Shown: piece by piece, positions 1 through 6,679 of the stretch
Layout: every line of letters starts with the position of its first letter
How positions within the stretch are numbered: position 1 is the first letter of the stretch
Virus record (IMG/VR): IMGVR_UViG_3300029006_000021
Location: 1 to 6,679 of that record
Source: a virus
Lineage: Duplodnaviria > Heunggongvirae > Uroviricota > Caudoviricetes
Direction: 5' to 3' (one strand)
Length of the DNA stretch: 6,679 bases
Translations under genes and position numbers: made by a program
The notes under the pieces: model-generated
What the model was told of the DNA's origin: nothing
The model's input: only the letters and a program-made list of their open reading frames with translations
Databases searched by the model: none

Positions 1-31
1 GGGCGATTAACATCGCCTTTTGCTGCTTCAT
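1..31 (-). CDS. hokD: Hok/Gef-family small membrane toxin, N-terminal 10 codons only; gene continues beyond the left edge of the window
   Basis: Minus-strand ATG at 29-31 preceded by SD-like AAGGAGA about 9 nt upstream; visible translation MKQQKAMLIA matches the N-terminus of HokD/RelF as I remember it (HokC/Gef would read MKQHKAMIVA). Only 10 residues are in the window, so the call is tentative. Confidence 0.45.
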   Translation of the reverse strand, partial: MKQQKAMLIA

Positions 32-152
32 AGCCTGCTTCTCCTTGCCTTTCGGCACGTAAGAGGCTAACCTACATGTGCAAAGCATGAAATTGGCCTC
101 AGATTAATGTTAAGCGTCTTGCCGGACGCGTAATGTTAACTGGGGCTTTTCT

Positions 153-188
153 CTGTCTGCCTTACGGTGGCATGCCCGAGGCAGACAG
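153..188. other. 10-bp inverted repeat (CTGTCTGCCT / AGGCAGACAG) with 16-nt spacer containing the palindrome GGCATGCC, in the leader upstream of the hok-like gene
   Basis: Read directly. Not followed by a U-tract on either strand, so not a typical terminator; could be part of hok-type mRNA folding or a protein-binding site. Confidence 0.35.
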
Positions 189-276
189 CCTCAAGCACCC
201 GCAGCAATTCTACTTAACTCTCGCTTTACCGCAAACCGTTTTTACCCGATATGGGAATCCCCATATCGCAATGAAA

Positions 277-4689: not shown

Positions 4690-5115
4690 TTAGTGCATCA
4701 CCACAGCATTCCCTGCCGGGCCGCCGCGATTCATCTGGTCATACAAAACAACCGCTGACGCAACAAAATCGTCGACATCCTTCACCAGCCGATCCCGCCG
4801 TTCGACGATCTCACGGTAATACTCAGAACTGTGGCTGCGCATACGGGCCACCAGCAAAGGCGGCATCGCCTTTTCGATCGCTGGTAACAGAGCCTGAATT
4901 TTTTCAACAGCATCAGGGGTGTCTTTATCCAACCAACGGAAAATTTTCTGGGTATTACGGGCCAGGGCTTCCGGATGACTGTCGTCATACAGTTCCGGGA
5001 ACGTCATCCCCAGTTCGAAATAAGTCCGGGCTATTTCAGCTGCAGGAACTTTCTCGCCATCAGGATATGCCCAGGCATTGATCGCCATGCGGATGTGTTC
5101 ATGCTTGATTTTCAT
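4690..5115 (-). CDS. ydaT: YdaT-like protein, 141 aa (lambda CII-like regulator; historically annotated as a toxin)
   Basis: ORF track; ATG 5113-5115 with SD GGAG about 9 nt upstream; 17-nt overlap with the upstream ydaS-like gene; position between Cro-like and O-like genes as in Rac. Symbol by synteny and size, not verified. Confidence 0.85.
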   Translation of the reverse strand: MKIKHEHIRMAINAWAYPDGEKVPAAEIARTYFELGMTFPELYDDSHPEALARNTQKIFRWLDKDTPDAVEKIQALLPAIEKAMPPLLVARMRSHSSEYYREIVERRDRLVKDVDDFVASAVVLYDQMNRGGPAGNAVVMH

Positions 5116-5380
5116 GAATCAAGCTCCTAGAAAGTGGTTGTGTTAACGTTTTGGTATCTTCCAGCTCAGGCCAAATATTCATCCAATCAAAAGGCCTTAG
5201 TTGCTGACGTGTAACTTCACCATTACTGGCTCGCTCAATAAGGACACATAACGATGCCCCTAACACTTGACCTTTACTCAATGCCTTTCTTAGATAACCG
5301 ATGCTGGTACCACACTCGCATGCAAACATACGCTGTTCATCTGACGAAAGAGAATTGAGAAATATTCTTAATTCTTCCAT
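5099..5380 (-). CDS. ydaS: YdaS-like Cro-type HTH regulator, 93 aa
   Basis: ORF track; ATG 5378-5380 with SD AAGGAG 5 nt upstream; HTH-like segment CGTSIGYLRKALSKGQ; first gene of the operon divergent from the repressor gene. Symbol by synteny, not verified. Confidence 0.85.
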   Translation of the reverse strand: MEELRIFLNSLSSDEQRMFACECGTSIGYLRKALSKGQVLGASLCVLIERASNGEVTRQQLRPFDWMNIWPELEDTKTLTQPLSRSLIHENQA

Positions 5381-5405: not shown

Positions 5406-5433
5406 AGAATACCTATAGGTAAACAAAAGTCAA
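5406..5433 (-). promoter_or_regulatory. PR-like sigma70 promoter for the ydaS operon: -35 TTGACT (5428-5433), 16-bp spacer, -10 TATTCT (5406-5411), read on the minus strand
   Basis: Hexamers read directly; the -10 overlaps the perfect palindrome at 5410-5421; predicted transcript start sits about 20 nt upstream of the ydaS SD. Confidence 0.55.
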
Positions 5434-5487
5434 TACCTTTGGGTTGTTTACCTTACGGTAATCACATCTATTATTTACCTATGGACA
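5410..5487. promoter_or_regulatory. Operator cluster: four TACC-N4-GGTA-type palindromes (5410-5421 TACCTATAGGTA, perfect; 5434-5445 TACCTTTGGGTT; 5450-5461 TACCTTACGGTA; 5476-5487 TACCTATGGACA); candidate repressor binding sites
   Basis: Read directly; they sit between divergent repressor and Cro-like genes and overlap the predicted promoter hexamers, an arrangement like lambda OR1-OR3. Confidence 0.55.
5447..5474 (+). promoter_or_regulatory. PRM-like promoter for the repressor gene: -35 TTTACC (5447-5452), 16-bp spacer, -10 TATTAT (5469-5474); predicted start at or near the ATG at 5481 (leaderless mRNA)
   Basis: Hexamers read directly; there is no SD upstream of ATG 5481. Lambda cI is transcribed as a leaderless mRNA from PRM, which is the precedent. 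Confidence 0.4.
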
Positions 5488-5900
5488 AATATGAATTTAG
5501 ACGACAGCAGCTCATCAAAATTCGTGATGAGAAATGCGATGGTAAAGCGGTTAACGTAGCCAGAAAGATCGGTCGCGAGCCTTCTTATGTATCAAGAATG
5601 TTGTACCCAGAGGGGAAAAAGGGAAAAAAACGGATCGCTGATGATATGGTGGAGATTATCGAAGAGTCCTTTGGGTTACCCCGAGGATGGATGGATGGTA
5701 TCGTTTCATCATCAACGAACACAGCCTCCAATTATGAAACAAGGGTTCTAACGCCACGACAACGTATTTTTTTAGATCTCCTAGACGAGTTGCCAGAAAG
5801 TGAAGCGGATAACTTATTAAAAACTCTTGAAGAGAAAAAACAGTATTACAATATGATCTACGAAGAAATCCGTAAAAAGAAAGCACAAAACGCATCATAA
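5481..5900 (+). CDS. racR: RacR-like prophage repressor (cI analogue): N-terminal HTH, no S24 peptidase domain; 139 aa from ATG 5481 (alternative TTG at 5439 gives 153 aa)
   Basis: ORF track 5439..5900; HTH-like GKAVNVARKIGREPSYVSRML; divergent from the Cro-like gene with an operator-rich intergenic region. Start uncertain. Symbol by synteny with Rac, not verified. Confidence 0.8.
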   Translation: MDKYEFRRQQLIKIRDEKCDGKAVNVARKIGREPSYVSRMLYPEGKKGKKRIADDMVEIIEESFGLPRGWMDGIVSSSTNTASNYETRVLTPRQRIFLDLLDELPESEADNLLKTLEEKKQYYNMIYEEIRKKKAQNAS

Positions 5901-5943
5901 CTCACCAAACAACCAGTCACCAGTTAAGACACCTCAAAAAAGT

Positions 5944-5980
5944 TACCCACGGGTATTTACTTTTTAGATACCCGTGGGTA
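5944..5980. promoter_or_regulatory. Perfect 13-bp inverted repeat (TACCCACGGGTAT / ATACCCGTGGGTA) with 11-nt loop; each arm is itself a TACC-N4-GGTA operator-like motif. Candidate OL-like operator pair and/or bidirectional terminator
   Basis: Read directly; 44 nt after the racR stop. On the minus strand the stem is followed by CTTTTTT, on the plus strand by TTCTTCCTTTC. The shared motif with the racR/ydaS intergenic operators favours a repressor site. Confidence 0.5.
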
Positions 5981-6166
5981 TTCTTCCTTTCATACCAACC
6001 CACTCCGCCCCACAGAATGCAGGGCAATACCTCGAGTTACCCGGCAGTGGTCAGGGGTTAAGTAGCCAGCCCGAGGCGTATGAACATGACGGCGGGAACA
6101 CTTTGTATAACAGCGCAGCAGGTTTTTAGTTCCGCTACCCCGGCGTTAAGGGGAAATGAGGTCAAC

Positions 6167-6319
6167 ATGGATACTATCGAGCTTGGCAACAACGAATCTC
6201 TGGTGTGCGGCGTCTTCCCCAATCAGGACGGCACGTTTACCGCGATGACGTATACCAAAAGTAAAACGTTTAAAACCGAAGCTGGCGCGCATCGCTGGTT
6301 AGCCAGAAACGCCAACTGA
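6167..6319 (+). CDS. Small protein, 50 aa (MDTIELGNNESLVCGVFPNQDGTFTAMTYTKSKTFKTEAGAHRWLARNAN), downstream of the repressor gene; possibly equivalent to the small ydaG/ydaF-type genes of Rac
   Basis: Track ORF 6080..6319 trimmed to ATG 6167 with SD GAGG 5 nt upstream. Equivalence to Rac genes is by position only. Confidence 0.5.
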   Translation: MDTIELGNNESLVCGVFPNQDGTFTAMTYTKSKTFKTEAGAHRWLARNAN

Positions 6320-6485
6320 TTAGCGCCAGTAAAAACAGGTTTCCACAGGTTAATGTACCCTGAAAAGTCATGGCATAACACGAAAGCGCACGGAGAGGTT
6401 TCTTTGCATATAAGTCTTGTCGTTAAATTTCTTCGACCGTGCGCTTCCGGTTGTGTAGCCAGTGCAACCTCGTGGTGTACCCATT

Positions 6486-6524
6486 GGCGGCATCGGTTTG
6501 TTGCTGACTGATGTCCGCCCTTTT
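6486..6524 (+). terminator. Candidate rho-independent terminator: GGCGGCATC / GATGTCCGCC stem (one bulge) followed by CTTTTTAAA
   Basis: Read directly; the loop is large (about 14 nt), so this is weak. Confidence 0.3.
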
Positions 6525-6679
6525 TAAAGTGAATTTTGTGATGCGATGAATGCGGCTATGCGCACGCGGAACAGTTAAAGCAGTAAGGCGGTATTTTACT
6601 GGCGTAACAAGCATCAACTAACCCGGCGTTAATTGTTAACTGGTTAACGTCACCTGGAGGCACCAGGCACTGCATCACA

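What the first reader, a model, noticed from the sequence alone, without database searches (positions are those of the whole stretch)
6167..6319. Small gene in the position of the lambda PL-operon early genes (Rac ydaG/ydaF/kilR neighbourhood)
A 50-aa ORF with a reasonable SD sits downstream of the repressor gene and the operator-like hairpin. In Rac this neighbourhood encodes small proteins including the FtsZ-targeting killer KilR (established knowledge); whether this ORF is such a host-directed factor is unknown.
Basis: partly seen in the sequence, partly recalled or inferred. Interest (0 to 1): 0.35.

Follow-up and report, generated by a model that had tools for sequence, protein, structure and literature searches.

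The report
YdfA/YdaF-type small early prophage gene
The 50-codon ORF is a real gene, a copy of the E. coli prophage gene known as ydfA or ydaF (family DUF1391), whose function is still unknown; it is the first gene switched on when the prophage repressor is lost, and related domains in injected phage proteins hint at a role against host defences rather than in killing the cell.

Summary
Window 6167-6319(+) is a 50-aa ORF with a GAGG Shine-Dalgarno 5 nt upstream. It matches Pfam DUF1391 at 100.6 bits. It is 86% identical to K-12 Qin YdfA, 80% to Rac YdaF, and 100% to a RefSeq protein. Forty-five alleles give pN/pS 0.18 in this frame and 1.5-1.9 in the other two, so the protein is under selection.

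The gene is the promoter-proximal cistron of a repressor-controlled, PL-like operon of the dicBF type. The order is short DicA-type repressor, two TACC-N4-GGTA operators, DUF1391, a truncated DicF-like RNA, then dicB just past the window end. It has no similarity to KilR, DicB or YdaG.

In published work, inducing the Qin operon without dicF and dicB was not toxic. This argues against a killer role.

Function is unknown in the literature searched. One new lead emerged: the same domain sits inside large phage and mobile-element proteins, next to DarA_N, ddrB-ParB and ArdC_N anti-restriction domains. It also sits in early-gene arrays of unrelated phages. My best guess, at about 0.35, is a non-toxic immediate-early counter-defence or host-binding module.

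The gene itself is already known. Interest is modest.

The parts
5481..5900 (+). Immunity repressor gene, 139 aa. It is a short DicA-type repressor; no family library matched a peptidase domain.
   Evidence: phrog_5736 'transcriptional regulator', E 4.7e-70. The C-terminal 50 aa are weakly DicA-like (NF007257, 24 bits). PGAP annotates the same CDS in L001 at 8582-9001.
5410..5460 (.). Three TACC-N4-GGTA operator-like sites (5410-5421, 5434-5445, 5449-5460) between the divergent repressor and cro-like genes (OR-like region).
   Evidence: Pattern search. Promoter-like sites on both strands lie here.
5944..5980 (.). Two palindromic operators (5944-5955 and 5969-5980) forming the 'hairpin'; OL-like. 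The pair followed by a T-rich run also scores as terminator-like after the repressor gene.
   Evidence: That the repressor binds here is inferred, not shown.
5956..5984 (+). Putative early-left (PL / dicBp-like) promoter: -35 TTTACT at 5956-5961, 17-nt spacer, -10 TATTCT at 5979-5984, interleaved with the two operators.
   Evidence: Read from the sequence. It matches 8 of 12 consensus positions, below the scan threshold. Homology to Rac starts at 5991, just after the -10. This part is an inference.
5991..6154 (+). Transcribed leader shared with Rac (the region between racR and ydaG). The Rac ydaG gene is absent at the junction 6154/6163.
   Evidence: 85.6% identical to L003 4466-4621. It is not more structured than shuffles, z = +1.67. 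It has no boxA and no short hairpins.
6158..6161 (+). Shine-Dalgarno GAGG, 5 nt before the ATG.
   Evidence: Sequence.
6167..6319 (+). DUF1391 (YdfA/YdaF) coding sequence: 50 aa, 5.5 kDa, pI 6.5.
   Evidence: AlphaFold2 model with pLDDT 81: N-terminal hairpin, three-stranded sheet, C-terminal helix.
6472..6520 (+). Degenerate DicF/KilS-like RNA. The terminator hairpin at 6489-6515 is kept, and the 5' seed segment of DicF is missing.
   Evidence: Rfam DicF 29 bits, E 0.003, below the gathering score of 48. Terminator-like site. Alignment to Qin dicF, Rac kilS and L001.
6522..6679 (+). Highly conserved 5' untranslated region of the downstream division-inhibitor gene (dicB here; kilR in Rac). The gene itself starts just beyond the window end.
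   Evidence: Long invariant blocks in the alignment. dicB lies at L001 9894-10082, 25 nt after the end of the match to the window.

Best explanation
SHOWN. The ORF is a genuine, selected protein-coding gene, an orthologue of E. coli K-12 ydfA (Qin) and ydaF (Rac), Pfam DUF1391. It is the promoter-proximal cistron of the repressor-controlled early-left operon of a Rac/Qin-like lambdoid prophage. That operon runs on through a DicF-like RNA to dicB, a DUF1482 (ydfD-like) gene and an exonuclease gene.

The product is a neutral 5.5-kDa single domain with an N-terminal hairpin carrying the near-invariant LGNNE motif, a three-stranded Thr/Lys-rich sheet and a C-terminal GAxRWL helix.

INFERRED. It is expressed immediately on loss of repression or on infection. 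It is not toxic, and it acts on a host macromolecule at the very start of the phage cycle. My favoured mechanism is counter-defence of the anti-restriction kind, because the same domain is built into proteins that other phages and mobile elements are predicted to deliver with their DNA. These are DarA_N-DUF1391(-ddrB-ParB) proteins encoded beside portal and tail genes, and ArdC_N-DUF1391-DUF3560 proteins. A lambdoid phage that cannot inject the domain would instead make it from the first early transcript, in the place where lambda carries ral.

Confidence by part: about 0.97 for identity and operon position, about 0.8 for 'not a killer', about 0.35 for counter-defence.
For: Identity: Pfam 100.6 bits; 86%, 80% and 100% identity to YdfA, YdaF and RefSeq WP_000379611.1.

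Coding: pN/pS 0.18 in frame against more than 1.5 in the other frames.

Operon position: in 92 related loci the gene follows repressors of at least four immunity types in the same orientation. In 62 of 66 loci dicB or kilR follows within 3 kb. The same arrangement is seen in the viable phage mEp460 and, with a LexA-type cI, in Serratia phage OS31.

Expression: published data show ydfA is transcribed from dicBp under DicA control (PMC10448788), and ydaF rises 40-70-fold when RacR control is disturbed (PMC11014345).

Not toxic: the Plac-ydfABC-ydfD strain lacking dicF and dicB grows and looks like wild type (PMC5069750).

Counter-defence lead: an exhaustive phmmer search found 213 representative clusters. 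Thirteen of the 150 listed are longer than 200 aa. Of the 10 longest, 5 carry DarA_N, and a sixth cluster has a fuller-length member that does. Two carry ArdC_N plus DUF3560. One 1572-aa member also carries ddrB-ParB. The DarA_N-DUF1391 gene of L106 lies next to portal and tail genes and matches a PHROG described as 'released from the phage upon host infection'.

Stand-alone copies sit in unidirectional arrays of small early genes, next to orphan DNA methyltransferases, DUF932, DUF4942 or primases. [quoted passage not shown]
Against: No experiment assigns any function to a DUF1391 protein. Every paper read says it is unknown. Domain fusion and neighbourhood are guilt by association. Polyvalent proteins also carry domains with roles other than anti-restriction.

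The protein is neutral (pI 6.5), so it is not an acidic DNA mimic like Ocr or ArdA. There is no significant structural or sequence match to any characterised protein. Rac carries its own restriction-alleviation gene (ralA, listed in PMC11014345) as well as ydaF, so a second one would be partly redundant.

The non-toxicity result is for single-copy Plac expression of the Qin homologue, not for this allele.
Confidence: 0.55

Rival explanations
1. A host-directed killer or cell-division inhibitor like KilR, DicB or lambda Kil (the possibility raised by the first reader).
For: Early-left operons of lambdoid phages do encode such proteins. This operon carries dicB downstream, and Rac carries kilR.
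Against: There is no similarity to KilR or DicB. Induction of the Qin operon with dicF and dicB deleted but ydfA intact gives wild-type growth, viable counts and morphology (PMC5069750). A filamentation screen attributes the Qin region hit to dicB and dicF (PMC6206680).
Confidence: 0.05
2. An N-like transcription antiterminator or processivity factor. It would let the early-left transcript read through the DicF terminator hairpin and the long untranslated stretches to reach dicB and the recombination genes.
For: It holds the same slot as lambda N, the first gene after PL. The operon contains a terminator-like hairpin at 6489-6515 upstream of dicB. No N homologue is seen in the window.
Against: There is no arginine-rich motif; the protein has only 2 Arg, both in the C-terminal helix. 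There is no boxA and no boxB-like hairpin in the leader, and the leader is not structured (z = +1.67). The domain also occurs inside virion-module polyvalent proteins, in a nin region and in early arrays of non-lambdoid phages. Known non-lambda N analogues such as mEp021 Gp17 keep the arginine motif (PMC11893012).
Confidence: 0.07
3. A lysis-lysogeny modulator analogous to lambda cIII: a small early-left protein that protects the CII-like activator (YdaT homologue) or otherwise tunes the immunity switch.
For: Its size and position resemble cIII. The prophage encodes a CII-like YdaT protein (phrog_163, E 2.7e-47). The gene is tightly linked to immunity regions of several types.
Against: Linkage to many unrelated repressors argues for a function independent of the repressor. 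The domain occurs in phages and proteins with no such switch: the Pantoea LIET2-type 75-kb phages and the DarA_N and ArdC_N polyvalent proteins. No sequence relation to cIII was seen in any library.
Confidence: 0.12
4. A nucleic-acid-binding module with a sheet-plus-helix fold, like the AP2 or integrase arm-binding domains. It would coat or cap the incoming DNA (or an RNA) rather than bind a host protein.
For: The predicted topology is a three-stranded sheet packed on a C-terminal helix. Foldseek against viral models lists several phage HNH endonucleases and many small phage proteins with TM-scores around 0.6, but with E of at least 0.05. The fusion partner ArdC_N binds ssDNA, and DarA is stated to bind the transferred DNA (PMC5512222).
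Against: Profile-profile comparison with AP2 domains gives probability 2.9%. No PDB fold match passes E 0.1. The protein is neutral and has few basic residues.
Confidence: 0.15
5. No protein function of its own. The ORF would be kept only as a translated leader that shields the transcript from Rho, or it hitch-hikes with dicB and dicF.
For: About 370 nt of untranslated RNA follow the ORF before dicB. The gene is almost always linked to dicB or kilR in Escherichia.
Against: pN/pS of 0.18 with an invariant 40-residue core. The domain is conserved at 40-70% identity in many unrelated contexts and as part of large proteins. It folds confidently, pLDDT 81 overall and 92-94 averaged over residues 21-40.
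Confidence: 0.04

Closest known systems
YdfA of the Qin cryptic prophage (E. coli K-12 b1571), first gene of the dicBF operon
   Same: 86% identical protein, same Pfam family. It holds the same place directly downstream of a DicA-type repressor and upstream of dicF and dicB.
   Different: Qin has ydfB and ydfC between ydfA and dicF, and the window has neither. The window's repressor and operators are of another immunity type, and its DicF copy lacks the seed region.
YdaF of the Rac cryptic prophage (E. coli K-12 b4527)
   Same: 80% identical. The transcribed leader upstream is 85.6% identical to Rac. The replication and immunity genes on the other side are of the Rac type (YdaS-, YdaT-, YdaV-like).
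   Different: Rac has ydaG in front of ydaF, sieB on the opposite strand after it, and kilS/kilR instead of dicF/dicB. None of these is in the window.
Lambda Ral and other early anti-restriction proteins (T7 Ocr; plasmid ArdA and ArdB)
   Same: A small protein made from the first early transcript. The proposed role is analogous only. For Ral, the early-left operon position is from established knowledge and from the ral entries in the prophage table of PMC6206680.
   Different: No sequence or fold similarity was detected. The protein is not acidic like Ocr or ArdA. No anti-restriction activity has been tested for any DUF1391 protein.
Phage P1 DarA/DdrB-type and ArdC-type polyvalent proteins (Iyer, Burroughs, Aravind and colleagues 2017, PMC5512222)
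   Same: The DUF1391 domain is a module of proteins with DarA_N, ddrB-ParB or ArdC_N domains.
   Different: The window protein is a stand-alone domain expressed after entry, not a virion- or pilus-delivered multidomain protein. DUF1391 is not named under that or related names in the paper's main text.
KilR (Rac) and DicB (Qin) division inhibitors
   Same: Same operon, and a similar size class.
   Different: Unrelated in sequence. The Qin homologue of this gene is not toxic.

Membership tests
DUF1391 / YdfA-YdaF family (Pfam PF07151, PHROG 751) | Match to the family profile above the curated threshold over the full domain | tested here: met
   100.6 bits against a cut-off of 27.3, covering profile positions 1-47 of 48. 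phrog_751 E 1.4e-35.
DUF1391 / YdfA-YdaF family (Pfam PF07151, PHROG 751) | About 50 aa with the conserved core LGNNES...GVFPNQDGTFTAMTYTKSKTFKT..GA.RWL | tested here: met
   All 39 columns that are invariant among the four aligned proteins (window, L001, YdfA, YdaF), 37 of them within residues 6-45, are therefore shared with YdfA and YdaF. The window protein also carries the near-invariant residues N8, E10, G15, G22, A26, T28, S32, F35, K36, T37, G40, A41 and W44 of the wider family.
DUF1391 / YdfA-YdaF family (Pfam PF07151, PHROG 751) | Promoter-proximal gene of the repressor-controlled early-left operon, upstream of dicF/dicB or kilS/kilR (the Escherichia subgroup) | tested here: met
   Repressor 267 nt upstream on the same strand. 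DicF-like RNA at 6472-6520. dicB follows in the 94%-identical L001.
KilR (FtsZ inhibitor of Rac) | Sequence similarity to KilR | tested here: not met
   tblastn with KilR at E 1e-4 gave no hit in the window, while it found KilR in 11 related loci.
KilR (FtsZ inhibitor of Rac) | Inhibits cell division or kills on expression | not testable with these tools
   Published indirect evidence is against it: the dicF- dicB- operon with ydfA intact is not toxic (PMC5069750).
YdaG (Rac) | Sequence similarity to YdaG | tested here: not met
   No tblastn hit in the window. The Rac ydaG segment is missing at the 6154/6163 junction.
Lambda N-type antiterminators | N-terminal arginine-rich RNA-binding motif | tested here: not met
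   Only 2 Arg, at positions 43 and 47; the N-terminus is acidic and polar (and the sequence).
Lambda N-type antiterminators | nut site (boxA plus boxB hairpin) in the leader | tested here: not met
   No boxA within 1 mismatch in 5900-6679. No short hairpin other than a palindrome at 6028-6039. The leader fold has z = +1.67.
AP2 / integrase-arm-type sheet-plus-helix DNA-binding domains | Detectable profile homology to AP2 domains | tested here: not met
   hhalign probability 2.9% over 18 columns. No AP2 hit in Pfam at E up to 10 for 48 members. Only the topology is alike.
Polyvalent proteins of phages and conjugative elements (PMC5512222) | Multidomain polypeptide with two or more effector domains, encoded in a packaging or transfer context | tested here: not met
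   The window protein is a single 50-aa domain in an early operon. Only its homologous domain occurs in such proteins.
Known anti-phage defence proteins (PADLOC) | Match to any defence-system model | tested here: not met
   No hit at E up to 0.01.

The most novel reading that the evidence does not exclude
DUF1391 is a widespread, so far unrecognised immediate-early counter-defence module. It would most plausibly act against type I or other restriction systems, or against a nuclease that attacks entering DNA. Lambdoid prophages would express it as the first early-left gene. Other phages and mobile elements would deliver it pre-made, as a domain of Dar-like capsid proteins or ArdC-like transfer proteins. 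If so, YdfA and YdaF, two long-standing E. coli K-12 genes of unknown function present in most E. coli genomes, would gain a function.
Probability: 0.3. Interest if true: 0.6.

Novelty: already known. Interest (0 to 1): 0.3.

Why it matters
The gene itself is ordinary. An identical protein is already in RefSeq as a 'DUF1391 family protein'. A 780-bp query spanning the gene and its downstream region matched 4642 of 5426 complete E. coli genomes, with a median of 2 places per genome.

The finding still has some value for two reasons. First, ydfA and ydaF are among the K-12 genes that still lack any function, although they are the first genes of two much-studied prophage operons (dicBF and the RacR regulon). 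The domain recurs inside DarA_N, ddrB-ParB and ArdC_N proteins, which points to a job done at the moment foreign DNA enters a cell. If confirmed, that would add a small and very common anti-defence family. It would also explain why the gene is kept next to so many different immunity regions.

Tried and rejected
1. KilR, DicB, YdaG, YdfB, YdfC and SieB homology in the window: none.

2. Solved structures by sequence: the only hit is a 19-residue match to the phage 21 head-decoration protein SHP, E 0.033. I judge it to be chance. It probably explains the wrong label 'head-DNA stabilization protein D' on DUF1391 genes in some GenBank phage records.

3. Fold searches of two AlphaFold2 models (pLDDT 73 and 81) against PDB and BFVD: nothing passes E 0.05. 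The top hits were PH domains, Shiga toxin B, HicB3 and small uncharacterised phage proteins, and the fold is too simple to classify.

4. AP2-domain homology, suggested by the topology and by the HNH-endonuclease hits: hhalign probability 2.9%, rejected.

5. Weak Pfam matches for 48 diverse members at E up to 10: nothing consistent.

6. NCBIfam and PADLOC: no hit.

7. RNA explanations. No Rfam family overlaps the ORF. The mir-2041 'hits' at 5944-5980 are the operator palindrome. The leader is not structured.

8. N/nut system: no boxA or boxB. mEp021 Gp17 was checked as a possible relative and is an arginine-motif N-like protein, so it is unrelated.

9. Literature. 'ydfA' on plasmids R64 and pUA1135 is probably only a name collision: the text read uses the name for a plasmid ORF without describing the protein, and no sequence comparison was made. 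Most 'YDFA' hits are about fibre amplifiers. 'DUF1391' occurs in one paper of the library, where it is incidental. The polyvalent-protein paper does not mention the domain under the names searched.

10. The 79-aa form starting at 6080 was rejected as the true product, because the extension is not conserved.

Full report
OBSERVATION. The window carries an ORF at 6167-6319 on the + strand (ATG to TGA, 50 aa), with GAGG at 6158-6161, 5 nt before the start. The mechanical ORF list extends it to an upstream ATG at 6080 (79 aa). In homologues called with extensions, the added residues are unrelated to each other. NCBI's pipeline calls the 50-aa form in a 94%-identical prophage. A 50-codon ORF means little by itself, because the window has 70 ORFs of at least 30 aa. 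This one matches Pfam DUF1391 at 100.6 bits (cut-off 27.3) and PHROG 751 at E 1.4e-35.

CODING TEST. I collected 97 copies from related loci, of which 52 are distinct at the nucleotide level and 45 are exactly 153 nt long. Pooled Nei-Gojobori counts give pN/pS 0.18 in the annotated frame, against 1.95 and 1.54 in the other two + frames. Thirty-one of the 56 variable columns are at third codon positions. The protein sequence is therefore under purifying selection, and the gene is real.

IDENTITY. The product is 86% identical to YdfA of the K-12 Qin prophage, 80% to YdaF of Rac, and 100% to RefSeq WP_000379611.1.

SURROUNDINGS. To the left on the - strand lie a YdaS/Cro-like gene (5099-5380), a YdaT/CII-like gene (4690-5115), an O-like initiator gene and a DnaC-like loader gene. 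On the + strand, a 139-aa repressor (5481-5900) precedes the ORF by 267 nt. It is a short DicA-type protein with no peptidase domain detected.

The motif TACC-N4-GGTA occurs three times between the divergent genes (5410-5460) and twice at 5944-5980. The window has 8 matches against 1.3 expected, and no shuffle out of 200 reaches 8. Between and over them I read a weak sigma-70 promoter: TTTACT, 17 nt, TATTCT, at 5956-5984, matching 8 of 12 positions. This promoter is an inference.

Homology to Rac begins at 5991, right after the -10. It runs through a 164-nt leader (85.6%) and skips the Rac ydaG gene. The leader is no more structured than shuffled sequence (z = +1.67) and has no boxA or boxB.

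Downstream of the ORF there is a degenerate DicF-like element at 6472-6520 (Rfam 29 bits, below the threshold of 48). It keeps the terminator hairpin but lacks the seed region. After it comes a near-invariant untranslated region shared by dicB in Qin and kilR in Rac. In the closest complete genome, dicB starts 25 nt past the window end. It is followed by a DUF1482 (ydfD-like) gene, a large exonuclease gene, xis and int, next to ompW.

Across 92 related loci, the gene follows repressors of at least four immunity types. In 62 of 66 loci with enough downstream sequence, dicB (51) or kilR (11) follows within 3 kb. The gene is therefore the first cistron of a PL-like operon of the dicBF type.

WHAT IS PUBLISHED. 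Papers on the dicBF operon and on the RacR regulon all state that ydfA-C and ydaF-G have no known function (PMC10448788, PMC5069750, PMC11430063, PMC11014345). They show that ydfA is transcribed from dicBp under DicA repression as part of ydfABC-dicF(-dicB-ydfD) transcripts. They also show that ydaF rises 40-70-fold when RacR control is disturbed.

Inducing the Qin operon from Plac is lethal. The same construct without dicF and dicB, but with ydfA intact, grows, survives and looks like wild type. This is the best available evidence against the killer reading.

NEW LEAD. The word-indexed search found only close relatives from Escherichia, Shigella and Salmonella, all 80% identical or more. The species-level genome collection gave 17 loci, essentially all Escherichia or Shigella sequence, some sitting in mis-binned metagenome assemblies.

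The exhaustive HMMER search reached much further. It found 213 representative clusters at 40-70% identity, and a profile of these found 1099 clusters. The wider family keeps N8, E10, G15, G22, A26, T28, S32, F35, K36, T37, G40, A41 and W44.

Thirteen of the 150 listed representatives are longer than 200 aa. Among the ten longest:
- Five carry DarA_N (P0181, P0189, P0190, P0198, P0205), and a fuller-length member of the P0212 cluster does as well.
- Two carry ArdC_N plus DUF3560 (P0197, P0237).
- One has two DUF1391 copies in tandem (P0210).
- A 1572-aa member of the P0181 cluster carries DarA_N, DUF1391 and ddrB-ParB together.

The DarA_N-DUF1391 gene of contig L106 lies beside portal and tail genes. 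It matches a PHROG described as 'released from the phage upon host infection'. The ArdC_N gene lies in a mobile-element-like region with an integrase, SRAP and a methyltransferase.

According to Iyer and colleagues (PMC5512222), DarA_N and ddrB-ParB are confined to phage-type polyvalent proteins, which are predicted to enter the host with the DNA. They state that P1 DarA/DarB and plasmid ArdC bind the transferred DNA and protect it against restriction. For the DarA_N domain itself, they say only that the biochemical activity is obscure and that an early counter-restriction role is possible. They do not mention DUF1391 under any name I searched.

Stand-alone copies in other phages sit in early regions:
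- after cI in Serratia phage OS31;
- after a helicase in E. coli phage Bas97;
- after a primase in Salicola phage CGphi29;
- in small-gene arrays of Pantoea LIET2-type phages and of metagenomic phages;
- next to two orphan DNA methyltransferases in L108;
- between DUF932 and DUF4942 in L107.

STRUCTURE. With a diverse alignment, AlphaFold2 gives pLDDT 81, with block means of 92-94 over residues 21-40. The model has a short N-terminal hairpin carrying LGNNE, a three-stranded meander and a C-terminal helix. No PDB or BFVD match is significant. The topology recalls AP2 or integrase-arm domains, and several phage HNH endonucleases appear among the weak hits. However, profile-profile comparison with AP2 gives only 2.9% probability. 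The protein is neutral (pI 6.5) and has two arginines. It is therefore neither an N-type RNA binder nor an acidic DNA mimic.

INTERPRETATION. Shown:
- The gene is real and selected.
- It is an orthologue of ydfA and ydaF.
- It is the first cistron of a repressor-controlled dicBF-type operon.
- The domain is shared with Dar-like and ArdC-like polyvalent proteins.

Inferred: a non-toxic protein made at the earliest moment of the phage cycle, acting on a host macromolecule. Counter-defence of the anti-restriction kind is my favoured reading, at about 0.35. Its logic is that lambdoid phages express from the first early transcript what other elements deliver pre-made, much as lambda places ral early in its PL operon.

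The rivals are a DNA- or RNA-binding role (0.15), a cIII-like lysogeny modulator (0.12), an N-like antiterminator (0.07), a killer (0.05) and a mere translated leader (0.04). Each is discussed with its refuting experiment in the fields above.

VERDICT. The feature is an already known and very common gene family of unknown function. The interest lies only in the open function and in the testable lead found here.

Noticed in passing
window 1-200 (- strand): A hok/sok toxin-antitoxin locus at the left end. Rfam sok scores 117 bits (gathering score 59) at 26-200(-). The start of a Hok peptide (MKQQKAMLIA...) reads off the left end of the window on the - strand.
   Followed up: partly
window 6472-6520: The DicF-like RNA of this prophage is truncated. 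Compared with Qin dicF and the 94%-identical prophage L001, the 5' segment that holds the target-pairing region (CCTCTGTTATCA.TTTTCTGGTGA) is missing, and only the terminator hairpin at 6489-6515 remains. This copy may not act as a DicF-type regulator.
   Followed up: partly
window 6522-6679; L002 3940-4105; L003 3230-3400 (-): A long, almost invariant untranslated region precedes both dicB (Qin, L001) and kilR (Rac), although DicB and KilR are unrelated proteins. Something in this RNA or DNA is conserved independently of the gene it precedes. There is a weak Rfam hit to STnc100, 21 bits.
   Followed up: no
proteins P0181/P0336, P0189, P0190, P0198, P0205, P0341, P0197, P0237; loci L106, L110: The DUF1391 domain is a module of large proteins with DarA_N, ddrB-ParB or ArdC_N plus DUF3560. 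One such gene sits beside phage portal and tail genes. This association is not mentioned in the literature I could search.
   Followed up: partly
GenBank phage records ON470580, PV340562, ON470583, ON470595, ON470614, ON470616: DUF1391 genes are annotated as 'head-DNA stabilization protein D'. This probably stems from a 19-residue chance similarity to the phage 21 SHP decoration protein (E 0.033) and looks like propagated mis-annotation.
   Followed up: partly
window 5481-5900 and 5410-5460 / 5944-5980: The repressor is a short DicA-type protein for which no autocleavage (peptidase) domain was detected, with five TACC-N4-GGTA sites as candidate operators. As described for DicA (PMC10448788), induction may need an antirepressor rather than RecA-mediated cleavage.
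   Followed up: no
L001 6047-6793 and 13125-14256: In the closest complete genome (NZ_AP045179, prophage next to ompW), the DnaC-like gene has an internal stop and the integrase is frameshifted. That relative is therefore a decaying prophage, yet its DUF1391 gene is intact and encodes the identical protein.
   Followed up: no
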